Shown one piece after another: positions 4,884-62,364 of a stretch of 64,000 nt of DNA. The position numbers and the translations under genes were made by a program. The stretch lies in sequence record MK524178.1, one strand, 5' to 3'. A model generated the notes under the pieces. It was not told the origin of the DNA and did no database searches. It worked only from the letters and a program-made list of their open reading frames with translations. Source of the stretch: Escherichia phage PHB12. Within the stretch, counting starts at the first letter, position 1. Every line of letters begins with the position of its first letter.

Positions 4884-5833
4884 TATAAAACCTCAATAGC
4901 ATTTCGTAAACCATCAGCTTTTGCATTCAGAGCTTTTAATGATTTAGTTTGTTCTGCAATCTGGGCTTCGACTTCTTTCAGACGAGATTTGAGATATTCG
5001 CGTTCTTCTCTTAAATTATCAACTTTTTCTACTTTAGTCTCTTTAATAGGCTTAGGTTTATACTCGTTAGGGTTCTTCAACTTAATTTGAATGCGAGAAC
5101 TGTATAACATTGAACCATTATCTTCAGTTTCATCATACATTTCTACCACGTCCATAGTCTGTAACATCATACGAAGTTTATAAGACAGCGAACGAACGGT
5201 TTTGTTGCGCTTATTAATTTCTTCGGCTTTCATGGTACCGAGATTACGTGAGTAGTAATAAGGAACCTGGATATCAATTGATAACGATGCAGCGCCATTA
5301 CCGGTTGGTTTGAATACTGCAGTAACCCAATCTTTAACATGAACTTTATTTGTACGACCATCACCGCCTGTGAATAATTTACGTGAATGTTTAAAAAGCA
5401 TATTCACTTGGTTATTGAATTCACAAGCAAATTTATCAGCAAATTTAGTTTCAGGAATGGTAGATAACCAATCAGCCAAATGAGTCTTTTTAACATCGTT
5501 AATAATAGTAAATTCAACCAAATCAGTTTTAGATGTCACAGATTTAATAAAGCTCGGCTTCATAAAGTTTTTAATGTTATCTCGAGCTACAGTAGAAGAT
5601 AATAAACGAGAACGTTTGAACCATTGAAGCAGTGTCCCTAATGAATGAGAATACGCATTCTGAGTATCTTTACAGATATGATTTTCTTGGCCTGTGTATG
5701 TACCAAAATCGCGAAGAATGCCACTTACTACAACTCGGTGTGGAACATCAAATCCTAATAAACCAGAAGCACGTTGGGCATGAACGTTAGCGATAAGACC
5801 TGCAAAATAATCAACATAATGTGAACGTGTCAT
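4883..5833 (-). CDS. hypothetical protein with C-terminal coiled coil, 316 aa
   Basis: ORF track; heptad-like tail (LREEREYLKSRLKEVEAQIAEQTKSLKALNAKADGLRNAIEVL). Confidence 0.6.
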   Translation of the reverse strand: MTRSHYVDYFAGLIANVHAQRASGLLGFDVPHRVVVSGILRDFGTYTGQENHICKDTQNAYSHSLGTLLQWFKRSRLLSSTVARDNIKNFMKPSFIKSVTSKTDLVEFTIINDVKKTHLADWLSTIPETKFADKFACEFNNQVNMLFKHSRKLFTGGDGRTNKVHVKDWVTAVFKPTGNGAASLSIDIQVPYYYSRNLGTMKAEEINKRNKTVRSLSYKLRMMLQTMDVVEMYDETEDNGSMLYSSRIQIKLKNPNEYKPKPIKETKVEKVDNLREEREYLKSRLKEVEAQIAEQTKSLKALNAKADGLRNAIEVL

Positions 5834-16782: not shown

Positions 16783-17241
16783 CTAGATTTTAATCACTGC
16801 TTTAGAAGCTTTTCCTGGTAGTCGTTTATTGTTAATAATAGCCATTCTGCATTGAAGAGTCTTCATTTTGAATGCTGGATTTTCACGACAAACTGTAAGT
16901 CCTAACCAAAGATTTCCATCAGTTATTTCTAAACGGCCTGGGCGATATTCGACACCTTCGACAAAATCTTCATCAACATCTGGACGGGCCGGCATTGATA
17001 AAAATTCTGCAACTTCTTTAACATGATTTTTTACTTTACGAAATAATTCAAAAACGTAGTTCTCATCTATTTCTCTCTGGATGGCACGATCTAAGAGATG
17101 TTGAGAATACTTGATATGAAAGCCTGGTAGTCCAAGAGACTTTGCAGCATCTTTTATACCGGCATTTATTTTGCGGAACTCCGTTTCAAAGATTCGACGG
17201 AGTTTATTACGGCGGATAAAAACGTCTGAATTGATAGTCAT
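16783..17241 (-). CDS. regB: RegB site-specific endoribonuclease
   Basis: 152 aa; MTINSDVFIRRNKLRR...LQCRMAIINNKRLPGKASKAVIKI closely matches T4 RegB as recalled. Confidence 0.9.
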   Translation of the reverse strand: MTINSDVFIRRNKLRRIFETEFRKINAGIKDAAKSLGLPGFHIKYSQHLLDRAIQREIDENYVFELFRKVKNHVKEVAEFLSMPARPDVDEDFVEGVEYRPGRLEITDGNLWLGLTVCRENPAFKMKTLQCRMAIINNKRLPGKASKAVIKI

Positions 17242-17302
17242 TTTGATTTCTCCTCTAGTTGACAGGTCTATAGTAACACAACTAGAGGAGAAGTAAACTA
17301 CT

Positions 17303-17518
17303 TTATTGATAAAATGGAGTTAAAGCCCAAGATTCTTTAGATACCATGTTGGCGAAATGCCTCATCTCTTCGATTTGGCGACGACGCTGGTCAGCATAGT
17401 CTTCTTCGCCTTCTTCCTTACAATCTTCAAGGTCTTCTTCAAGATACTTTAAGTATTCACTACAAATTTTGTTGACCTTTTCTTGAAAGTCCAATAACCC
17501 AGTAATAGTAGAAGCCAT
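17303..17518 (-). CDS. small acidic protein, 71 aa
   Basis: ORF track; own early-promoter cassette upstream. Confidence 0.5.
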   Translation of the reverse strand: MASTITGLLDFQEKVNKICSEYLKYLEEDLEDCKEEGEEDYADQRRRQIEEMRHFANMVSKESWALTPFYQ

Positions 17519-17784
17519 TAGTATTTTTCCTCAGGTCGAAATACTGCACGACATGCCCACATGCTGGCTTCTTTTAGATGTTGCTTAGCATACTTAAGAG
17601 CCTGCACTGCATCCATATCTTCTTTGGTTTGTTGCTCTGATTCATTTTCTTTCAAGATATATGCTTCTTCAATCAGAGCATCAAACATCAATCCAAGACG
17701 GACTTCTGCATCTTTAATAGCGTTCACTTTACTGATTTTATCATCGGTATGCGGCTTGTAGCCTTTGATGTCTTCAATCGACAT
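17518..17784 (-). CDS. vs.4: Vs.4-like protein (Acb2 cyclic-nucleotide sponge family), 88 aa
   Basis: Internal ATG with SD GAGGAAAT; MSIEDIKGYKPHTDDKISKVNAIKDAEVRLG...KEASMWACRAVFRPEEKY resembles T4 Vs.4 as recalled; position between regB and the YfiD-like gene. Confidence 0.7.
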   Translation of the reverse strand: MSIEDIKGYKPHTDDKISKVNAIKDAEVRLGLMFDALIEEAYILKENESEQQTKEDMDAVQALKYAKQHLKEASMWACRAVFRPEEKY

Positions 17785-17998
17785 AAGGAATTTCCTCATC
17801 GGTGGCAAGGTCATATTCGACCAATTGGATAGGCTCGTTAATACCATATCCACGTACAGTGATATCGGTTGTCGGATATTTTCCAGTAATATCACCCATT
17901 CTAAATGCTTCAGTGAATGATTGCTCGCCTGAGCAACTAAACCAGGCGGCAAAACATTTTAAAACATCTTCAGACCCTTCTATAATCAATTTAGCCAT
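17774..17998 (-). CDS. small protein, 74 aa
   Basis: ORF track; stop overlaps the vs.4 start. Confidence 0.5.
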   Translation of the reverse strand: MAKLIIEGSEDVLKCFAAWFSCSGEQSFTEAFRMGDITGKYPTTDITVRGYGINEPIQLVEYDLATDEEIPYVD

Positions 17999-18360
17999 TA
18001 TAGACTCTCAGTAAAGGTACGAGCGATAACGTCGCGTTGCTGTTCTGGAGTCAGAGAGTTAAAGCGAACTGCATAACCGGATACACGGATGGTCAGCTGT
18101 GGATATTTTTCCGGATGCTTAACTGCATCTTCCAGAGTTTCACGACGCAGAACGTTAACGTTCAGATGTTGACCACCTTCAATTTTAACTTTAGGTTGAT
18201 GTTCAATTTCAATTTCACGGGCATTCAAACCGTAGAAAATTTCCGGGTCTACAATAGCGTCTTCTTTAAAAGTCTTAGAGACGATAATCCGGGCTTGAGT
18301 ACCGTCTTCAAAATAAATAGTGCCTTTATGTGCACCTTCAAGAATTTGATATGCTTTCAT
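17998..18360 (-). CDS. glycyl-radical spare-part protein (YfiD/GrcA-like)
   Basis: C-terminal two thirds match E. coli YfiD as recalled, including RVSGYAVRF. Confidence 0.85.
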
Positions 18361-18366
18361 ATAACC

Positions 18367-18675
18367 TCAATTAGAAAATAAATTTATCCAAGATTTTTCT
18401 TTAATCAAAAATGGGTCGGAATTAAACGCCATTAAACTTTGAGTGATTAATCCCTTAAATGGCCCATCAATAAATTCCATTTTGAAATGTGGAATACTAG
18501 TCATCAACCGTGCATTAGGAGCAGTACAAAGAACGTGCTGCCCTGCGAACGGACCTTTAGTCAAACGATATCGTTTAGGTTTAAAATGGTAAATCTCGTA
18601 ATTTTCTACAAGAGCCCTTTTATTGCATACTGGGCTGTTATAACAATACTCAAAAACTTCAATAGTGGTCATCAT
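18367..18675 (-). CDS. hypothetical protein (about 102 aa from the internal ATG)
   Basis: ORF track frame; likely start MMTTIEVFEY. Confidence 0.45.
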   Translation of the reverse strand: MMTTIEVFEYCYNSPVCNKRALVENYEIYHFKPKRYRLTKGPFAGQHVLCTAPNARLMTSIPHFKMEFIDGPFKGLITQSLMAFNSDPFLIKEKSWINLFSN

Positions 18676-19211
18676 TGCATTCCAATCACAAAAAATTGAG
18701 GACGAGCAATACCGCCGATGCAATATTTGCTTTTGCAGCAGTGCTGTACTGATTTAATATGGACATTGTAAATCTTATCCATATCAGGAGCTTTAATAGG
18801 CTCGTCAATTATATACAGAATACGAGAAAGCGTTAATCCACGGAATTTAGAACCTTCATTGCCAATAAAACTACGGACAGAATCAGTAAATAAACGGAAT
18901 CGAATATCATCGCTAGAATAACGAGAAAATTCTTTTTTAATGTTGCCAACAGAAATTTTAGCATAAGCTGAAGTATTAGAAAGAACAATAACTGTTCCAC
19001 CGTCGTACAGCCAATTAACAGCAAAATTAGTTACTGCGGTCGATTTACCTGATTGTCTGCCGCCGTCTAAACGAAGTGTACAGTACTGCTTGAGTACGTC
19101 TTCAAATGGCGGGATATAACCATTCTTACAAATTTCTTCTACTCTAGCATCAGAATGGTGTGTAAAAGCATTCATCAGGGATAGATAAGGTCCGGTTAAA
19201 AATGTTCTCAT
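18672..19211 (-). CDS. small P-loop NTPase, 179 aa
   Basis: Walker A GGRQSGKST and Walker-B-like ILYIIDEP. Confidence 0.6.
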   Translation of the reverse strand: MRTFLTGPYLSLMNAFTHHSDARVEEICKNGYIPPFEDVLKQYCTLRLDGGRQSGKSTAVTNFAVNWLYDGGTVIVLSNTSAYAKISVGNIKKEFSRYSSDDIRFRLFTDSVRSFIGNEGSKFRGLTLSRILYIIDEPIKAPDMDKIYNVHIKSVQHCCKSKYCIGGIARPQFFVIGMQ

Positions 19212-19484
19212 TTAGTTTCTCTTTTAGGTTGGGCTGTTCCGTGGCACATGAATTGTCCATTTCTGTATTTACCCATTACCGCACTTGGGCTCGACCTTAT
19301 TACAGGTTGGCGGGAATCCCTCATAGAATCATGAGGTCCAGGTTGTTCCCATGTTATTTGAATGTAAATATTTTTGCCTTAATACTTATACCAGTGTGGC
19401 TTCATTAAAATTTTTTCATCGAGTCATTTTACCTCTCCAAGTAATTATGAATATACTATCACAATTTTAGGAGAAAGTAAACTG

Positions 19485-19787
19485 TTATTTACCTTTAATT
19501 ACTTTAGCTGCTTCGATAGCCGCTTGCTGAAGGTCGTCCATAGACATACCGAATTTAGAAGCAAAGTTATCAATTTTCTTTTCGACAGCATTCAAAGGCT
19601 TGGCCTGTTTACCTTCATTAGCGCCAGGAAGAGCGAGAATACGCTCTTTGTCAATATAAAGGCTTACAAGTTTCTTACGGTCTTTATCGGATAAATCATG
19701 AAATGAATGGGCCTTTTTATTTATAGCGGCTTCTAATTTACCTGCACTCACTCGCGCTTCAGTAATAAATTCTTGATATGTTTTCAT
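19485..19787 (-). CDS. internal-protein-like head protein with capsid-targeting leader, 100 aa
   Basis: Begins MKTYQEFITEA, the T4 internal-protein targeting sequence, ending in an LxE-type protease site. Confidence 0.7.
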   Translation of the reverse strand: MKTYQEFITEARVSAGKLEAAINKKAHSFHDLSDKDRKKLVSLYIDKERILALPGANEGKQAKPLNAVEKKIDNFASKFGMSMDDLQQAAIEAAKVIKGK

Positions 19788-19828
19788 ATGTTTCCTTTAA
19801 ATGTAAATAGGCCTAAGTATCGGCCTTA

Positions 19829-20407
19829 TTAATTACCACGGGCTGCATTAGCAACGGCATAAGCGTACTGAACATTAGCGTCTTTAAACGTACCTTTAGA
19901 GGTGTCTATTTCTGCCTTAAAGCCGCCTTTAGCCATAACATCGGCAAATTCTTTACGGAAGGCCATTGCATCAAGACCCTTCCATGATGATTTATGCTTG
20001 GCAAATTCAAGACCTGCGAAGTTGACAGCTTTAGCCAATTTATTATCAATGACCCATTTACCGGCTTTAGGCACAAACTTCGGGCCTTTTTGTTTAGAGA
20101 ACAGTTTTAAATTCCAGCGACGAAGATCACTGTCGGCTTTAACAAAAGCTGCGTCTAAGTTACTAGCAACAACATCTTCAATATGAGCAAATTTAAGTCC
20201 GTCAACTTCAATATTTAGATCGTTACGCCAGCGAAGTCCTTCCCAAGCGAAGGCTTTAAAATCAGAAGCTTTTGTGGCTAGATATCGTTCAAGTGGAGCA
20301 GTTTTAGGGTCGAAGCCGTTTCCACCACGATAAGTCCACTCGTCCTTATTAATGCCTTGAGCTTTTCCTGCAAAGGCCTCGGCGATAAATTCTTTATATG
20401 TTTTCAT
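19829..20407 (-). CDS. internal protein (IPIII-like), 192 aa
   Basis: Begins MKTYKEFIAEA; length close to T4 IPIII. Confidence 0.7.
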   Translation of the reverse strand: MKTYKEFIAEAFAGKAQGINKDEWTYRGGNGFDPKTAPLERYLATKASDFKAFAWEGLRWRNDLNIEVDGLKFAHIEDVVASNLDAAFVKADSDLRRWNLKLFSKQKGPKFVPKAGKWVIDNKLAKAVNFAGLEFAKHKSSWKGLDAMAFRKEFADVMAKGGFKAEIDTSKGTFKDANVQYAYAVANAARGN

Positions 20408-20470
20408 TTTTGTTTCCTTGTTTGTTTTGATAGAGTAATTATACCATATTAATACTTAAGCGTAAACTGT

Positions 20471-20731
20471 TTAAGCTTTACCGCCGGAAATAATTCCGAA
20501 GTTGTTAAAATCGTATCCAATATCGTCGACATCTACTTTAGGGCTTGCTACAACATAAGCAATTTCACTACGTTTTGCATAGGTGTTGATTTCTTTACCA
20601 TCGCCACCTAAGAAAGAATACCCATTACGTTTTAATGAGCCAAAGTCTTCCGCATCACCAATGAAAGCTTTAACTTTAAATTTGGGGTCTTTGGCATCTG
20701 CTTCAATGATAAATTCTTGATACATTTTCAT
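20471..20731 (-). CDS. internal-protein-like protein, 86 aa
   Basis: Begins MKMYQEFIIEA. Confidence 0.65.
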   Translation of the reverse strand: MKMYQEFIIEADAKDPKFKVKAFIGDAEDFGSLKRNGYSFLGGDGKEINTYAKRSEIAYVVASPKVDVDDIGYDFNNFGIISGGKA

Positions 20732-20739
20732 TTTTTTCC

Positions 20740-21153
20740 TTAGTAAATTGATTTACCATAGTATTTGTACCAAGTCGGACGTTGAGCAATTTTTTCATCT
20801 AAGCGTGCTTGACTTATCGCAATGGACGCTTCGGACGGGACGTAATTATTACGAAATTCTACAGGAATGTCGGAAATATCCTGGACTGTCGTGTCCTTGA
20901 TTTTGAAACCACGTTTCAAACATTCGGTGATTAGCTCGATTTGACGTAAACGTAAAAATTCGAGTTTGTCGTAAAAGAATGTTACGTGACCTGTGCCTAA
21001 GATAAATGTTGGAGAGATTTTAAAATCTTTTACACGTTTACCGTTTTGAACATGTTTACGGACTGCACCAAATACGCGTGGTAATTCACGATACTCAGCC
21101 ATAAGATGTTGGTCGGTCAGTTCGGAAACGAGTGTTAAATTGATACGAGTCAT
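20740..21153 (-). CDS. denV: endonuclease V (pyrimidine-dimer DNA glycosylase)
   Basis: [12 protein letters not shown]...[10 protein letters not shown] closely matches T4 DenV as recalled; start refined to the internal ATG. Confidence 0.92.
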
Positions 21154-21211
21154 AATTTCCTCCAAGTAGTTGATGAATGTATAGTATCAAAGTCCTTGGA
21201 GGAAGTAAACA

Positions 21212-21493
21212 CTATTTTTCTGAAGCGCCCGAAATATATTTTTCAAGACGTTGTTTCATCAGCGAGCCGTTCTTAGCGATTTCTTCCGGTTTATCGCACA
21301 TACGCAACAAGGCTTCAAGCTTAACGATATCACTGGTACGTTCAAATTTGCGAGTATCTATCTTACTAGCAAGTTCAGAAATACGTGCTAATAGACTTTC
21401 AGCTTCAACCAAAGCTGCACCTAGCTTAGTTGCAAATGTGTCAGTAGCTTCGTTAAGAATAGATTCTGATAAAAATTCACTATATGTTTTCAT
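21212..21493 (-). CDS. internal-protein-like protein (about 93 aa)
   Basis: From the internal ATG begins [11 protein letters not shown]. Confidence 0.6.
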
Positions 21494-21978
21494 ATATACG
21501 CTTTCCAAGTTCCTGTTTTAAATGTTGAGATTACGCGTTTCGCGCGATTAGGTGTCTGACGATACCATTTAGATTGGGCTAGATTTACTGCCGCTTCGTC
21601 CCAACGTTTCTGTTGAAGCATACGAAGAGAATTAGTAAAACCAGCGACGCCTGCTACACCCATTTGGAAGACCATATTGACCAATGCACATCGACGAACT
21701 GCATCTAAAGAATCATATACCGGTTTAAGTTTAGCATTACCCAAGATTCCGCGAACGGCTTTATCAACGTCTTCATTAAATAGCTTTTCAGCCTCATCAA
21801 GGGTAATTGTACCGTTGCATTTACGTCCGATCATTCTGTCAAGTTCAGCTTTAGCTACGGCTAAAGACGGGTTCTTTGTTACTAAATGGCCTATGCCAAT
21901 CGTCCAAAAGCCTTCAGTGTCTTTGTATAAAGACAGTCTAAGACCTTCGTCATTACGAAGCATTTCAAATATATTCAT
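21490..21978 (-). CDS. e: lysozyme (endolysin)
   Basis: [15 protein letters not shown]...[12 protein letters not shown] closely matches T4 lysozyme as recalled; SD sits in a hairpin (ATACCTCC/GGAGGTAT) at 21980-22005. Confidence 0.93.
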
Positions 21979-22012
21979 AATACCTCCCACGTTTATAGGA
22001 GGTATTTATTAC

Positions 22013-22471
22013 TTATAAGAGGGTAGTGAGCACCTTATATAATGATTTGCCCATTACATATTCCCATTGAGAAGGTTTAATTAAAGCGAATGCATCAAAT
22101 TCAGGAATCTGTCGTCCATCCGGGAACGTATGATAGGAATTACAAACACTGTTTCTGAATTGCTCGTGCTCTACAGGGATGGTATATAAGAACAGATGAA
22201 TATTCTTATTGTCTGAGTAATGATGTTCACCTAGGTCTTTCAGGAAGGCAGGGTCATATTGTGTAAACCCAGTTTCTTCTTCGCATTCACGAATAGCGGC
22301 TTCGATAGGAGATTCACCGGGCTCGACACGACCTTTAGGAATATCCCACCGATGAGCTAATGCACCTTTAGGACGAGAACCAGTTACACGGCCCATGAAT
22401 AACTCTTTATCTTCGGTAAGGAAAATAATACCGGCTGATAGTTCTTTCACTTTATTTTTCTTACTCATCAT
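22013..22471 (-). CDS. nudE: Nudix hydrolase
   Basis: Nudix box GRVEPGESPIEAAIRECEEETGF. Confidence 0.85.
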   Translation of the reverse strand: MMSKKNKVKELSAGIIFLTEDKELFMGRVTGSRPKGALAHRWDIPKGRVEPGESPIEAAIRECEEETGFTQYDPAFLKDLGEHHYSDNKNIHLFLYTIPVEHEQFRNSVCNSYHTFPDGRQIPEFDAFALIKPSQWEYVMGKSLYKVLTTLL

Positions 22472-22712
22472 CTCGGTCCCATGATTTGGCCATTAATTCG
22501 GACATAAATTCTTCAATGCGCGTTTCTTTAGATGGACTTTCACTATTAGAGACCGCAAGTTTGTAATCTGCAATAGGACAGAACATATCAAGGTCCATAT
22601 TAAGGTCGTCTTTGATTTTTTCTTCTGACACATCTTTATCGTATGTGTACAGATAACTATCACATGATTCTGATTTAATGTAAATTGCTATACTCATCTC
22701 AAATTCCTGCAT
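22461..22712 (-). CDS. small acidic protein, 83 aa
   Basis: ORF track. Confidence 0.5.
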   Translation of the reverse strand: MQEFEMSIAIYIKSESCDSYLYTYDKDVSEEKIKDDLNMDLDMFCPIADYKLAVSNSESPSKETRIEEFMSELMAKSWDRDDE

Positions 22713-23173
22713 TCGGTAATAAAACGTTCAACTTCATTATTCTTGGCTTTTATCTTGTCTTTATGTTCTTGTAAACTACTTTTAATAAGATTAATAATGA
22801 TGGCGGCGGTACCGCCGCCAATGATGCCACCAACAACGCTTATGATACTAGATGCTAATAAGATAGCAATAATATCAACAAAACCGAAAGAACTCACCTT
22901 AGTACTGAAAAACCATATAGATGGTACAAATATAATCCATCCTGTTATCCATTGGCACTTATTGAAAAACTTTTCAAGCTCAGCTTGAGTTGTTCGTATT
23001 ACTTCATCGATAGGTTGATATCCATTAATGTATCTGTTCACGATAATACCTGCTGGCTGGTCGATTTTAAATTCTTGGCAAATATGTTTCACTAAGTAGG
23101 ATGGACATCCTGTCCAATCTACTGAATAGTATGAAATACCTTCATTGCCATCGTCTATATTATTGTTAATCAT
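22694..23173 (-). CDS. membrane protein with C-terminal RFITECR tail, 159 aa
   Basis: Two hydrophobic segments; tail shared with four other ORFs in this block. Confidence 0.55.
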   Translation of the reverse strand: MINNNIDDGNEGISYYSVDWTGCPSYLVKHICQEFKIDQPAGIIVNRYINGYQPIDEVIRTTQAELEKFFNKCQWITGWIIFVPSIWFFSTKVSSFGFVDIIAILLASSIISVVGGIIGGGTAAIIINLIKSSLQEHKDKIKAKNNEVERFITECRNLR

Positions 23174-23859
23174 TACCAGCCTTCCATAGGGAATTCCAGA
23201 TAAACTTGAGCATTGACACGAATTTCATTGGTAATCTTTTTAACTCGGTCTGTATTACGAGATACACGTCCGAACCAACGCCATCCATTACTAATTGCAC
23301 GAGAACCAGTGTGCCATGTTTGCCAATCAAACTGAAGAAGAGTACGATCTGGAGCTTCCCATTTCTCTAGTTCACCTTTTTCAATTTTTTCGAGGACTTC
23401 TTTGTGCCACTGACGATAGATAAGTTCGCCATCAGGAATCTGACTGAACTCTGCAGTTCCTGTTGCAAAATGAGTAGGACACACGTCAGCGTTAACAAGA
23501 CCAAGAATATGTTCAGACAAATAGCGAGGATTGTCATAATCAGGTTGTCCTGCAGTAATAAAATGTTGTCCTGTTGGAATATCTGGGCGTGGTACGTCAT
23601 CATGGTGATATCCAGGAATAGCAGGGTACCAACCAGGCATCAGCATGTGGACTCGTGAATCAAATACTACATCCGAGTCTTTCCAATCGTCAGGAAGATT
23701 TTGGATAAAGCTACGAGTAATTGGGCCGCCATTATCAAAAGCAAAATTCAAATCGCAGTTAAAGAACATAGGCTCGTTTTTAATCTGGTCGTTTTTAATC
23801 GCATGAGCAAAACCGCCTACTGCACGAGCTTGACTATTAAACACTTTAGAACTATTCAT
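23173..23859 (-). CDS. hypothetical protein, 228 aa (possible Fe/2OG-oxygenase-like, very tentative)
   Basis: ORF track; His/Asp-rich patch GYHHDDVP; no firm family assignment. Confidence 0.5.
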   Translation of the reverse strand: MNSSKVFNSQARAVGGFAHAIKNDQIKNEPMFFNCDLNFAFDNGGPITRSFIQNLPDDWKDSDVVFDSRVHMLMPGWYPAIPGYHHDDVPRPDIPTGQHFITAGQPDYDNPRYLSEHILGLVNADVCPTHFATGTAEFSQIPDGELIYRQWHKEVLEKIEKGELEKWEAPDRTLLQFDWQTWHTGSRAISNGWRWFGRVSRNTDRVKKITNEIRVNAQVYLEFPMEGW

Positions 23860-23860
23860 A

Positions 23861-24166
23861 TTATTTTCCTCGACATTCTTTAATGAAATTTTCTAGATTG
23901 GTAGATTCAATAGCTTTTTTACGAGCTTCTGCGTGTTCTTCTTCGGACAATTTACATTTATAATTGACCCAGACATTATGGTCGAAACTAGTCGTAGCAT
24001 ATAATAACAATGCTCCAACGAATAGCAAAAACGGCGATAAGAATACAAAACCAGGAACACCATCCATATCGTAAGCCTTTTGTAATACTGCAACAGAAAG
24101 GGCTGCGTAAAAAGGTGATGCAAATATTGTTAAAAGACCAATTCGGTTGGTTTCGCCTAATTTCAT
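23861..24166 (-). CDS. two-TM membrane protein with C-terminal ENFIKECR tail, 101 aa
   Basis: Hydrophobic helices LLTIFASPFYAALSVAVL and FVFLSPFLLFVGALLLY. Confidence 0.55.
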   Translation of the reverse strand: MKLGETNRIGLLTIFASPFYAALSVAVLQKAYDMDGVPGFVFLSPFLLFVGALLLYATTSFDHNVWVNYKCKLSEEEHAEARKKAIESTNLENFIKECRGK

Positions 24167-29560: not shown

Positions 29561-29637
<77 letters not shown>

Positions 29638-29643
29638 AATATA

Positions 29644-29717
29644 TGACCCAGACCAGATTCGAACTGGTAACCTTTCCCTTATGAGGGGACTGCTGCTAAC
29701 CGTTGAGCTACAGGGCC
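29644..29717 (-). tRNA. tRNA with anticodon CAT (Ile-lysidine or Met type)
   Basis: T-arm ACCAG-TTCGAAT-CTGGT and anticodon loop CTCATAA; acceptor and D stems each carry one mismatch in my hand fold. Confidence 0.5.
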
Positions 29718-31221: not shown

Positions 31222-31485
31222 TTATTTCAAATATATTGCGTATTTTTTATAGCCACCAGGCTCGTGTCGAAGACCTTTATCATTCGCAAAACGTTGAATG
31301 TTATTGAACTGGTTTTCATCAAGTTCGGATGTGTCAAATACGAAAAAGTTTCGTTTGTTACCAAGCGTGATATGCGGAGTTAAGTCAATGTTATACAAAT
31401 TAAGAATATCAGCAATAACCTGATTAACCGCTTTGTTAATTTTCACACCAGATGATTCTGAGATGAATTCGTTGAAAGTTTTCAT
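31222..31485 (-). CDS. internal-protein-like protein (about 87 aa)
   Basis: From the internal ATG begins MKTFNEFISES. Confidence 0.6.
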   Translation of the reverse strand: MKTFNEFISESSGVKINKAVNQVIADILNLYNIDLTPHITLGNKRNFFVFDTSELDENQFNNIQRFANDKGLRHEPGGYKKYAIYLK

Positions 31486-31506: not shown

Positions 31507-31547
31507 TTGATAGGACTACTATAACATAGTCCTATCATGTTGTAAAT
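31507..31547 (-). promoter_or_regulatory. early promoter with palindrome (PeSL-type cassette, copy B)
   Basis: Same TTGATAGGACTACTATAACATAGTCCTAT element as at 31178; -35-like GTAAAT on plus. Confidence 0.55.
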
Positions 31548-31858
31548 TATTTTATGCCTTTAGAAGAAATGGTATTTTGGCGTTTGACCCCTGTTTGTGA
31601 AAAATCGTGGTTATCGATTTGGTCAACTCGCATAACACCAAATGCGGATTTAATTTTGGCTTTTGAACCTTTTTTGATACTAATTACCATATAAGTATCA
31701 TTTTTCTTATATTCGAAATTTGTTACTTCAACGCCTTGATTAGAAATTGACTTAATAATAGCATTAGCGTATTCATCATCTAACGGACCGTTAGTGTTAA
31801 TAATAAAATTTTTATCCGCTTTAGTAGCTTCCGCGATGAATTCTTGATAGGTTTTCAT
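31547..31858 (-). CDS. internal protein (IPI position), 103 aa
   Basis: Begins MKTYQEFIAEA; lies immediately before 57B as ipI does in T4. Confidence 0.65.
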   Translation of the reverse strand: MKTYQEFIAEATKADKNFIINTNGPLDDEYANAIIKSISNQGVEVTNFEYKKNDTYMVISIKKGSKAKIKSAFGVMRVDQIDNHDFSQTGVKRQNTISSKGIK

Positions 31859-60452: not shown

Positions 60453-60877
60453 TGTATCTTATCCCTGAATCTTATGAATTGGTACTCGAAAATGTCGAAG
60501 CACTTATTCCTGAAGCACAGGGCCGAATCGATGCATTGTCTTCTGCTCTCGATATTGACGATATAAATACTATTATCGAGAACATGCTTGAAACTGAAAC
60601 GGATTTAGCTGTTGCAATGGCTTCCATTATTAATGAAGAACAGTTAAATGAGTTTATCGTTAAACATGTTTCTTCTCGTGGTGAAGTCACTCGCACTAAA
60701 GACCGTAAAACTCGTGAACGTAACGCGTTCCAAACAACCGGTCTTTCTAAAGCAAAACGTAGACAAATCGCTCGTAAGGTCGTTAAAGCTAAAAAAGCTA
60801 ACCCTTCAGGCCAAGTTAAAGGCTTGCGTAAGCGTAAAAAAGCTCTTAAACGTCGTAAAGCATTAGGATTAAGCTAA
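60452..60877 (+). CDS. 68: prohead core protein gp68
   Basis: 141 aa with basic C-terminus. Confidence 0.85.
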
Positions 60878-61518
60878 TGAATAAACCCGAGTTACTTATT
60901 GAAACTTGGGGTCAACCCGGTGAGATTATTGATGGCGTTCCAATGTTGGAATCTCATGATGGAAAAGATTCTGGCTTAAAACCAGGGCTTTATATAGAAG
61001 GTATTTTTCTTCAGGCAGAGGTTGTTAACCGAAATAAACGTTTATATCCTAAACGCGTTTTGGAAAAAGCAGTAAGTGACTATATTAAAGAACAAGTCGC
61101 AACCAAACAAGCCCTTGGAGAATTAAACCATCCACCTCGTGCAAATGTTGACCCTATGCAAGCCGCTATCATTATTGAAGATATGTGGTGGAAAGGAAAC
61201 GATGTATATGGACGTGCTAGAATTATTGAAGGCGACCATGGTCCCGGCGATAAATTAGCTGCTAATATACGAGCTGGTTGGATTCCAGGTGTTTCCTCTC
61301 GTGGTCTTGGTTCTTTAACCGACACCAATAAAGGGTACCGTATCGTGAACGAAGGATTTAAATTAACCGTCGGCGTAGATGCCGTATGGGGACCTTCTGC
61401 TCCAGATGCTTGGGTTACTCCTAAACAAATATCAGAATCAGAAAATTCGGTGGAAATCACCAAAAACAGTGCTGACGAAGCATTTAAAGCTCTCGCAGAG
61501 AGTTTAAAAGCATTATAA
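60877..61518 (+). CDS. 21: prohead core protease
   Basis: 213 aa; canonical position. Confidence 0.9.
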   Translation: MNKPELLIETWGQPGEIIDGVPMLESHDGKDSGLKPGLYIEGIFLQAEVVNRNKRLYPKRVLEKAVSDYIKEQVATKQALGELNHPPRANVDPMQAAIIIEDMWWKGNDVYGRARIIEGDHGPGDKLAANIRAGWIPGVSSRGLGSLTDTNKGYRIVNEGFKLTVGVDAVWGPSAPDAWVTPKQISESENSVEITKNSADEAFKALAESLKAL

Positions 61519-61551: not shown

Positions 61552-62364
61552 ATGATCAAAGAACAACTTTTGAAAGAAGCTCAGAACATCGAGACTTCAG
61601 TTGCTCTTAATAGTGTTTTCGAATCAGTAGAACTGTCTCCGGACGTTAAAGCTAATTTCAGCACTGTATTCGAAGCCACCGTTAAGCAGGAAGCAGTCAA
61701 ACTGGCTGAATCTCATATCAAAGCCATCGCCGAAAAGGCTGAAGAAGAAGTTGAAAAGGCTAAAGAAGATGCTGAAGAGAAAGCTGATAAAAAATTGGCT
61801 GAACAAGCTTCTAAATTCCTAGACCATCTTGCAAAAGAATGGCTCGCAGAAAACCAAATCGCAGTTGATAAAGGCATTAAAGCTGATTTGTTCGAATCCA
61901 TGCTTGGTGGTCTGAAAGAACTGTTTGTTGAACATAACGTTGTTGTTCCAGAAGAATCTGTAGATGTTGTAGCAGAAATGGAAGAAGAGCTGGCCGAACA
62001 TAAAGAAGAAACCGCTCGTTTGTTCGAAGAAGTTACCAAACGTGATGCATATATCAATTACGTTCAGCGTGAAACCGCTATTAATGAAAGCGTAAAAGAC
62101 CTGACTGAATCTCAGAAAGAAAAAGTTATTGGCCTGGTTGAAGGTATGGATTATTCTGACGCATTTGGTACTAAGTTAACTGCTATTGTAGAAATGGTTA
62201 AAGGTTCTACTAAAGAAGAAGCCGCTATTACCGAAAATATAAATACAGTTGACAATGACGCTGCCGGTCTTAATTTTGTTGCCGAAGCAGTTGACACTAC
62301 CACAACTCAGGTAGAACAGAATTCTAATGTAAGTTTATATGCGAAAGTCGCATCTCGTTTCTAA
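61552..62364 (+). CDS. 22: prohead scaffolding core protein
   Basis: 270 aa, highly acidic and helical. Confidence 0.9.
   Translation: MIKEQLLKEAQNIETSVALNSVFESVELSPDVKANFSTVFEATVKQEAVKLAESHIKAIAEKAEEEVEKAKEDAEEKADKKLAEQASKFLDHLAKEWLAENQIAVDKGIKADLFESMLGGLKELFVEHNVVVPEESVDVVAEMEEELAEHKEETARLFEEVTKRDAYINYVQRETAINESVKDLTESQKEKVIGLVEGMDYSDAFGTKLTAIVEMVKGSTKEEAAITENINTVDNDAAGLNFVAEAVDTTTTQVEQNSNVSLYAKVASRF

What the first reader, a model, noticed from the sequence alone, without database searches (positions are those of the whole stretch)
19485..21508. Four internal-protein-like genes around denV, three of them on the far side from e
Four ORFs begin with the T4 internal-protein capsid-targeting leader (MKTYQEFIxEA, [33 protein letters not shown]). 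In T4 as I recall it, ipII and ipIII both lie between denV and e. Here only one does, and three lie between the P-loop vs.8-position gene and denV. Internal proteins are injected with the DNA and include known anti-restriction factors, so extra divergent copies are candidate new injected effectors.
Basis: partly seen in the sequence, partly recalled or inferred. Interest (0 to 1): 0.6.

Follow-up and report, generated by a model that had tools for sequence, protein, structure and literature searches.

The report
Known T-even internal-protein genes, mosaic locus
The four genes are real packaged-and-injected "internal protein" genes of an RB69-like T-even phage, all from already catalogued families, and their odd order around denV comes from an imported T4-type gene cassette whose own denV copy survives only as a gutted remnant.

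Summary
Four minus-strand ORFs (19485-19787, 19829-20407, 20471-20731, 21212-21493) start with the T4 capsid-targeting leader. The window holds six such ORFs; 200 shuffles gave none.

Two of the four are plain orthologs of T4 IpII (94%) and IpIII (93%). The other two are the RB69 ORF125c-type and ORF127c/Ip5-like proteins. Both families occur in hundreds of sequenced phages and are already annotated "internal head protein".

The window comes from a Mosigvirus, about 96% identical to RB69 on both sides of the locus. The unusual order has a concrete cause. A T4-order cassette (ipIII-ipII-denV) replaced RB69's ORF124c-ORF123c downstream of the resident denV. The imported denV was then destroyed by a 347-bp deletion between two GACTCG repeats. 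Its remnant sits at 19358-19427, exactly at the T4 denV position.

Comparison with relatives shows 0 to 6 internal-protein genes at this locus. Junctions fall in the leader-coding DNA and in early-promoter/stem-loop cassettes.

The prohead protease gp21 and scaffold gp22 are in the same window. Packaging, cleavage and injection are inferred, not shown. The targets of the two RB69-type proteins are unknown. Low novelty.

The parts
19485..19787 (-). ipII ortholog (100 aa; leader MKTYQEFITE|A)
   Evidence: 94% aa identity to T4 IpII. phrog_7857 E 4.5e-55. 91% nt identity to T4.
19829..20407 (-). ipIII ortholog (192 aa; leader MKTYKEFIAE|A)
   Evidence: 93% aa identity to T4 IpIII over 192 aa. phrog_5341 E 2e-117. 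90% nt identity to T4.
20471..20731 (-). Protein C: RB69 ORF125c-type internal head protein (86 aa; leader MKMYQEFIIE|A; mature part acidic, pI 5.2). Starts 6 nt after the denV stop.
   Evidence: Mature part 97% identical to RB69 ORF125c, 74% to VR7 ORF127c and 73% to STP4-a gp116. phrog_2667 and phrog_35655. 217 phage records. All distant relatives found also carry the leader.
20740..21153 (-). Resident, intact denV (endonuclease V, 137 aa)
   Evidence: Pfam Pyr_excise E 5e-14. phrog_1183 E 3e-62. About 96% nt identity to RB69 and 78% to T4. Thr2 and Glu23 are present (translation).
21212..21493 (-). Protein D: RB69 ORF127c / Ip5-like internal head protein (93 aa; leader [10 protein letters not shown]|SILNE|A). 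Its ATG overlaps the stop of e (ATGA).
   Evidence: Mature part 100% identical to RB69 ORF127c and 48.6% to RB68 Ip5, E 1e-19. phrog_3499 E 1.2e-46. 496 phage records. Predicted three-helix protein, pLDDT 72.7.
19358..19427 (-). denV pseudogene remnant at the T4 position of denV: ATGACTCG joined to the last ~60 nt of a Tequatrovirus-type denV. It has a frameshift, TAC>TAA, and the old stop changed to CAA.
   Evidence: Alignment to fHoEco02 denV shows a 347-bp internal deletion between two GACTCG repeats, with the flanks almost identical. T4 homology stops 8 nt into denV on one side and at its stop codon on the other. Tequatrovirus records match the two halves across a full-length denV.
19428..19484 (-). 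PeSL-like cassette after ipII: GTTTAC ... TGaTAGTAT early-type promoter inside a stem-loop whose 3' arm carries the Shine-Dalgarno sequence
   Evidence: Fold -18.4 kcal/mol, z -4.06, 0 of 200 shuffles as good. Same element in T4 after e and after ipII. Definition of PeSL taken from PMC2839356.
21154..21211 (-). PeSL-like cassette between D and denV
   Evidence: Fold -17.8 kcal/mol, z -3.26. Inverted repeat I1 and direct repeat D7 with the cassette after ipII.
20438..20466 (-). Early (sigma-70-type) promoter upstream of ipIII: TTTACG-17-TATAAT with an upstream TG. In RB69 and phi25-307 the same sequence precedes the Ip10-like gene.
   Evidence: 10 of 12 match with TG. Sequence comparison. No stable stem-loop.
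20379..20419 (-). Right-hand recombination junction: RB69/phi25-307 homology (upstream region of the Ip10-like gene) switches to ipIII inside the leader-coding DNA
   Evidence: RB69 homology resumes at 20379. Leader-to-leader join visible. 42-nt leader repeat family D1.
31547..31858 (-). Fifth leader-bearing gene, Ip7-like (103 aa), at the ipI locus next to 57B
   Evidence: Motif scan. phrog_2667 E 1.8e-38. 41.6% identity to VR7 Ip7.
31222..31485 (-). Sixth leader-bearing gene (87 aa, MKTFNEFISES)
   Evidence: Motif scan. phrog_7673 'internal head protein' E 4.8e-49.
60877..61518 (+). gp21 prohead protease, the enzyme expected to remove the leaders
   Evidence: Pfam Peptidase_S77 E 2.9e-107.
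61552..62364 (+). gp22 scaffolding core protein, the structure the leader is thought to target
   Evidence: Pfam T4_CASP E 1.5e-89.

Best explanation
This is the e-to-vs.8 internal-protein locus of an RB69-like (Mosigvirus) T-even phage. It carries four genes for small proteins with the 10-residue capsid-targeting leader.

Inferred mechanism, from T4 experiments:
- The leader takes each protein into the gp22 scaffolding core of the prohead.
- gp21 cuts after Glu10. For protein D the cut is probably after Glu15, in LNE|A.
- The mature proteins stay in the DNA-filled head and are ejected with the DNA.
- In the host they block nucleases that attack the modified phage DNA.

Two genes are orthologs of T4 IpII and IpIII, which in T4 inhibit two different GmrSD type IV restriction enzymes. 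The other two are the RB69 ORF125c type and the ORF127c/Ip5-like type. Their targets are unknown.

The order differs from T4 because the locus is a mosaic.
- The backbone e-D-denV-C is the RB69 type.
- RB69's next two internal-protein genes (ORF124c, ORF123c) were replaced by a T4-order cassette, ipIII-ipII-denV.
- The redundant incoming denV then lost 347 bp between two GACTCG repeats.
- Exchanges use the conserved leader-coding DNA and early-promoter/stem-loop (PeSL-like) cassettes as homology patches.
For: Shown here:
- Leaders and gene order. Motif count 6 against 0 in 200 shuffles.
- IpII and IpIII orthology.
- Family assignments for C and D.
- gp21, gp22 and gp23 lie in the same window.
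- RB69 is about 96% identical on both flanks, and that homology breaks exactly at 19311-20378.
- ipII and ipIII are 90-91% identical to T4 at nucleotide level. The values are 71% for e/nudE, 78% for denV and 83% for the vs genes.
- The denV remnant and its deletion endpoints.
- Junction sequences in relatives.
- The locus holds 0 to 6 internal-protein genes in fHoEco02, Sf24, T4, VR7, RB69, STP4-a, mogra and phi25-307.
- Folds of the PeSL-like cassettes.

From the literature:
- Leader determinants at positions 4, 7, 8 and 10 (PMC9026906).
- Ip1, Ip2 and Ip3 each inhibit a distinct GmrSD enzyme (PMC12373910).
- IpIII is needed on strain ECOR17 (PMC9391042).
- PeSL-mediated shuffling (PMC2839356).
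Against: - No virion proteomics or cleavage data were found for C or D, so packaging and injection rest on the leader alone.
- There is no exact TATAAATA late promoter in front of any of the four genes. The only exact copy lies inside ipII. One-mismatch versions sit upstream of e. Late expression is therefore assumed by read-through or coupling.
- Mature C and D are acidic to neutral (pI 5.2 and 6.3). IpII and IpIII are basic at pI 9.6.
- Ip4 to Ip10 gave no reproducible inhibition of a 15-group GmrSD panel. The anti-GmrSD role therefore does not simply extend to all internal proteins.
- The direction and order of the recombination events are inferred from a handful of genomes, not from a phylogeny.
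Confidence: 0.85

Rival explanations
1. The locus arose by local duplication and divergence of internal-protein genes, or by denV moving within one lineage. On this view the two extra genes are young paralogs of ipII/ipIII.
For: All four genes share a 42-nt leader repeat (family D1). They are adjacent and on the same strand.
Against: - Beyond the leader, the mature parts of C and D show no detectable similarity to IpI, IpII or IpIII, or to each other.
- Each has orthologs in other genera at the same slots.
- A second, dead denV copy at the T4 position shows that a cassette was imported, not that denV moved.
Confidence: 0.05
2. C and/or D are not virion proteins. On this view the leader-like N-terminus is a recombination scar or relic, and the proteins act only in the cytoplasm, co-expressed early with denV or e.
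For: - C is coupled to denV (6-nt gap) and D to e (ATGA overlap). They sit behind early-type promoters rather than TATAAATA.
- Both mature parts are non-basic.
- The RB69 reference copy of D has a scrambled leader, MKTYMNFYQNLS.
- IpIII lacking its leader still works when expressed in the host (PMC9391042).
Against: - Y4, F7, I/L8 and E10 are kept in C and D across genera, while the mature parts diverge to about 40-70%.
- Every distant relative of C recovered from 1.84 billion representatives also has the leader.
- T4 e is itself served by late promoters, so a gene coupled to e would be made late.
Confidence: 0.12
3. C and D are packaged but serve head or DNA physiology, such as charge balance, DNA condensation or ejection, and are not inhibitors of host defences.
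For: About 1000 internal-protein molecules are embedded in T4 DNA, and their lysines contact phosphates (PMC3012670). No target was found for Ip4 to Ip10.
Against: - C and D are not basic.
- The genes are dispensable and swapped freely between close relatives, from 0 to 6 per locus. That fits host-specific accessory functions better than a structural need.
- All three characterised internal proteins are nuclease inhibitors.
Confidence: 0.2

Closest known systems
T4 IpII and IpIII (internal proteins II and III)
   Same: The window genes at 19485-19787 and 19829-20407 are 94% and 93% identical to them. They have the same length and leader, the same ipIII-ipII order, and the same promoter/stem-loop cassette after ipII.
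   Different: They lie downstream of the resident denV and of protein C, not directly after e. The denV that follows them is a remnant.
RB69 ORF125c and ORF127c ('internal head protein' in RefSeq NC_004928)
   Same: The mature parts are 97% and 100% identical. They hold the same positions flanking denV, with the same coupling to denV and e.
   Different: RB69 follows ORF125c with ORF124c (Ip10-like) and ORF123c. The window has ipIII, ipII and the denV remnant there. The RB69 record has a scrambled ORF127c leader.
Ip5 of T2/RB-type Tequatroviruses (RB68, RB5, GiZh 'ipV')
   Same: Protein D is 48.6% identical over 74 residues, E 1e-19. Both have a conserved x-x-E site at residue 15.
   Different: Ip5 sits at the ipI locus next to 57B. 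D sits between e and denV.
T4 IPI*, the GmrSD inhibitor with a solved NMR structure
   Same: Same concept: a small protein that is delivered by a leader, trimmed by gp21 and injected with the DNA.
   Different: There is no sequence similarity to C or D and no IPI ortholog in the window. The IPI leader is 19 residues long.
PeSL cassettes (promoter-early stem-loops) of RB49/phi1
   Same: An early sigma-70-type promoter is combined with a stable stem-loop and a Shine-Dalgarno sequence, between accessory genes in a hyperplastic region, at the borders of swapped modules.
   Different: These stems are A/T-rich with GGAG/CTCC cores, not the GGGG...CCCC described for RB49. Promoter and terminator activity were not tested here. 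One of the three junction promoters has no stem-loop.

Membership tests
T4-type internal (head) proteins | N-terminal capsid-targeting leader, with the targeting determinants at residues 4 and 7 | tested here: met
   Y4 and F7 are present in all four proteins. The determinants are taken from PMC9026906.
T4-type internal (head) proteins | gp21 cleavage motif (I/L-x-E) at residues 8-10 | tested here: met
   The motifs are ITE, IAE, IIE and LSE. D has a second, better conserved site, LNE15|A16. This is a sequence match only.
T4-type internal (head) proteins | The same genome encodes the T4-type prohead protease and scaffolding core | tested here: met
   gp21 Peptidase_S77 E 2.9e-107; gp22 T4_CASP E 1.5e-89.
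T4-type internal (head) proteins | Physically present in the virion, leader removed, ejected with the DNA | not testable with these tools
   No proteomic data for the C or D families turned up in the literature searches.
T4-type internal (head) proteins | Located in one of the two variable ip loci (e-vs.8 or 57B-tRNA), and dispensable or variable among relatives | tested here: met
   The locus holds 0 to 6 ip genes across nine phages.
IpII / IpIII orthologs | Full-length high identity to T4 IpII and IpIII | tested here: met
   94% and 93% identity.
GmrSD (type IV restriction) inhibitors | Blocks a specific GmrSD nuclease | not testable with these tools
   For IpII and IpIII this is inferred from orthology to the T4 proteins tested in PMC12373910. 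For C and D there is no evidence, and Ip4 to Ip10 gave no reproducible hits.
Ip5 family | Sequence homology of the mature part | tested here: met
   D against RB68 Ip5: 48.6% identity over 74 aa, E 1e-19.
PeSL regulatory cassettes | Early sigma-70-like promoter plus a stable stem-loop in an intergenic region of a hyperplastic region | tested here: met
   Two elements have z -4.06 and -3.26 and a GTTTAC...TGnTAnnAT promoter. The third promoter, at 20438-20466, lacks a stem. Activity was not tested.

The most novel reading that the evidence does not exclude
Protein C (RB69 ORF125c family, never given an Ip number and apparently never tested) and/or protein D may be injected inhibitors of a defence other than the GmrSD enzymes. 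One example would be a nuclease or glycosylase that recognises the arabinosyl-hmC DNA of RB69-like phages. That would extend the internal-protein arsenal to a new class of target.
Probability: 0.2. Interest if true: 0.55.

Novelty: already known. Interest (0 to 1): 0.2.

Why it matters
It matters little as a discovery. Diverse leader-bearing internal proteins in T-even phages have been known since 1994, and these four belong to catalogued families.

Two points have modest value.
- The window gives a clean example of how the internal-protein arsenal is reshuffled. A whole T4-order cassette was imported, and the duplicated denV was caught half-way through its removal. The junctions lie in the leader-coding DNA and in promoter/stem-loop cassettes.
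- Ip1, Ip2 and Ip3 were all recently shown to be subtype-specific GmrSD inhibitors. The RB69-type proteins C and D are therefore reasonable untested candidates for the next inhibitor-target pairs.

Tried and rejected
- Structure prediction of C failed (pLDDT 47).
- The model of D is a generic three-helix protein (pLDDT 72.7, pTM 0.35). Foldseek against BFVD and PDB gave nothing with E below 0.6.
- Sequence searches of C and D found nothing in PDB, Pfam or NCBIfam.
- The profile search of the C family over 1.84 billion representatives found only a few more leader-bearing phage proteins. It also returned weak hits to repeat proteins that I regard as spurious.
- I searched the literature for virion proteomics of RB69-type internal proteins. 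The search for ORF125c/ORF127c/Ip7/Ip10 returned only irrelevant papers.
- Repoila 1994 is not held, so I could not map C to an Ip number.
- Petrov 2010 does not discuss internal proteins.
- I looked for canonical late promoters in front of the genes and found none.
- I rejected local duplication and denV transposition as explanations for the gene order.
Full report
**Observation**

The minus strand of 19485-21508 carries four ORFs with the quoted N-termini:
- 19485-19787, 100 aa, MKTYQEFITEA.
- 19829-20407, 192 aa, MKTYKEFIAEA.
- 20471-20731, 86 aa, MKMYQEFIIEA. I call this protein C.
- 21212-21493, 93 aa, [12 protein letters not shown] call this protein D.

The coordinate 21508 is a TTG-extended reading of the last ORF. 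The leader begins at the ATG at 21493, which overlaps the stop codon of e as ATGA.

The gene order is vs.8-like P-loop gene (18672-19211), ipII-like, ipIII-like, C, denV (20740-21153), D, e (21490-21978), nudE.

The motif M[KR]x[YF]xEF[ILVM]xE occurs six times in the six-frame translation of the window and never in 200 shuffles. The other two copies are at 31222-31485 and 31547-31858, just downstream of 57B, which is the classical ipI locus.

**Where the window comes from**

The 3.5 kb around the finding matches 917 phage records. The best matches, at about 96-97%, are Mosigvirus isolates: RPN187, AV112, phi25-307 and mogra.

Against RB69 itself the window is 96.6% identical over 17000-19310 and 95.6% over 20379-24000. 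There is no homology in between apart from short leader matches.

**What the four proteins are**

- The 100-aa and 192-aa products are 94% and 93% identical to T4 IpII and IpIII.
- Protein C matches PHROG families 2667 and 35655. Its mature part is 97% identical to RB69 ORF125c, 74% to VR7 ORF127c (Gaprivervirus) and 73% to STP4-a gp116 (Gelderlandvirus). tblastn finds it in 217 phage records.
- Protein D matches phrog_3499. Its mature part is 100% identical to RB69 ORF127c and 48.6% identical (E 1e-19) to Ip5 of RB68. It is found in 496 records.
- RefSeq already labels both C and D 'internal head protein'.
- Beyond the leader, neither C nor D shows similarity to IPI, IpII or IpIII, or to each other.

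A profile search of the C family against 1.84 billion representative proteins found four further distant relatives: P0018, P0019, P0020 and P0022. Each also starts with a leader of the same type. The family therefore seems confined to leader-bearing phage proteins.

**Does the leader look functional?**

T4 experiments summarised in PMC9026906 place the targeting determinants at residues 4 and 7 and the processing determinants at residues 8 and 10. All four proteins have Y4, F7, I or L at 8, and E10.

In the D/Ip5 family the better conserved site is at residue 15. It reads LNE|A here and in RB69, and IITE|S in Ip5. Some members lack E10. The mature N-terminus of D is therefore probably A16.

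The window also encodes the portal gp20, the prohead protease gp21 (Peptidase_S77, E 2.9e-107), the scaffold gp22 and the capsid protein gp23. Packaging, cleavage and injection are thus well motivated, but they remain inferences. I found no proteomic evidence for C or D.

**Why the order differs from T4**

Directly after ipII comes the same promoter/stem-loop cassette that follows ipII in T4. Next come ATGACTCG, the first eight bases of denV, and then a segment that reads ...LDEKILMKPHWYKY*GKNIYIQ in one frame.

I aligned this region to the denV of the Tequatrovirus fHoEco02.
- The region is that denV with 347 bp removed between two GACTCG repeats.
- It also carries a TAC>TAA change and a mutated stop codon.
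- The retained 60 nt and the downstream spacer are almost identical to fHoEco02.
- Many Tequatrovirus records match the two halves of this segment across a full-length denV.

So a dead denV sits at 19358-19427, exactly where T4 has denV.

ipII and ipIII are 90-91% identical to T4 at the nucleotide level. The corresponding values are 71% for e/nudE, 78% for the intact denV and 83% for the vs genes. RB69 has two other leader-bearing genes at this place, ORF124c (Ip10-like) and ORF123c.

The simplest reading is this. An RB69-type backbone e-D-denV-C received a T4-order cassette, ipIII-ipII-denV, in place of ORF124c-ORF123c. The redundant incoming denV was then gutted.

**Junctions and relatives**

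- The right junction lies in the leader-coding DNA. The sequence upstream of ipIII in the window is the upstream region of the Ip10-like gene of RB69 and phi25-307. It switches to ipIII within ATGAAAAC...TATAAAGAATTTAT.
- phi25-307 keeps the Ip10-like gene, ipIII, ipII and an ORF123c-like gene. That makes six internal-protein genes at this locus.
- mogra has lost the denV remnant altogether, between two GGTAAA repeats.
- fHoEco02 has no internal-protein gene here.
- Sf24, which is T2-like, has e-denV-Ip4.
- VR7 has e-denV-ip10-C-like-ip7.
- STP4-a has one internal-protein gene before denV and three after it.

Internal-protein genes on the vs.8 side of denV are therefore common. T4's arrangement is only one of many.

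Two of the intergenic elements (19428-19484 and 21154-21211) combine a GTTTAC...TGnTAnnAT promoter with a stable stem-loop whose 3' arm holds the Shine-Dalgarno sequence. Their fold z-scores are -4.06 and -3.26. They fit the PeSL cassettes proposed to mediate modular shuffling in T4-type phages (PMC2839356). The promoter ahead of ipIII (20438-20466) is a good early promoter without a stem.

**Function**

- For IpII and IpIII the function follows from orthology. In T4, Ip2 inhibits the GmrSD of ECOR21 and Ip3 the two-gene GmrSD of ECOR17. Each is specific for its target (PMC12373910). IpIII is needed for growth on ECOR17 (PMC9391042).
- For C and D I commit to the same general mechanism: injected, target-specific inhibitors of host nucleases directed at modified DNA. 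My confidence in that is only about even.
- Ip4 to Ip10 showed no reproducible activity against a 15-group GmrSD panel.
- C and D are acidic to neutral, unlike the basic IpII and IpIII.
- No fold or family match gives a hint. The C model is unusable, and the D model is a generic three-helix protein with no significant neighbours. PDB, Pfam and NCBIfam are all empty.
- No exact TATAAATA late promoter precedes any of the four genes.
- D is coupled to e, and C is coupled to denV by a 6-nt gap.

**Verdict**

The idea that divergent internal proteins are injected anti-restriction factors is textbook for this group (PMC3012670). What this analysis adds is an explanation of the gene order, through a mosaic cassette and a denV pseudogene. 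That is a tidy illustration of a known mode of evolution, not a new kind of system.

Noticed in passing
window 19358-19427 (- strand): A denV pseudogene remnant between ipII and the vs.8-like gene. It is ATGACTCG fused to the last ~60 nt of a Tequatrovirus-type denV, a 347-bp deletion between GACTCG repeats. The phage keeps an intact RB69-type denV 1.3 kb away.
   Followed up: yes
window 31222-31485 and 31547-31858 (- strand): Two further leader-bearing genes at the ipI locus next to 57B: an 87-aa protein (phrog_7673) and an Ip7-like 103-aa protein. There is no IPI ortholog anywhere in the window, although RB69 is reported to have one.
   Followed up: partly
L008 (RB69 NC_004928) about 5170-5204, compared with window 21460-21493: In the RB69 reference record the ORF127c leader is scrambled by a -1/+1 pair of indels (MKTYMNFYQNLS in place of [12 protein letters not shown]). 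The frame is regained before LNE|A. This is either an old sequencing error or a natural leader-defective allele.
   Followed up: partly
window 19718-19725 (- strand): The only exact late-promoter consensus TATAAATA in the region lies inside the ipII coding sequence (codons AINK). T4 has GTAAATAA at the same place. Significance unknown.
   Followed up: no
window 29561-29717: Only two tRNA genes (Arg-TCT, Met-CAT) were found in the whole window. T4 has eight in the corresponding region.
   Followed up: no
P0020 (194 aa, metagenomic): A distant member of the C family carries the leader plus the C-like domain, followed by an extra ~100-residue C-terminal domain.
   Followed up: no
window 18672-19211 (- strand): The vs.8-like gene has a Walker-A motif (GGRQSGKST) and weak similarity to the N-terminal ATPase domains of terminase large subunits (Pfam Terminase_6N E 0.01; phrog_2 E 1e-6). 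Its function is unknown in T4 as well.
   Followed up: no
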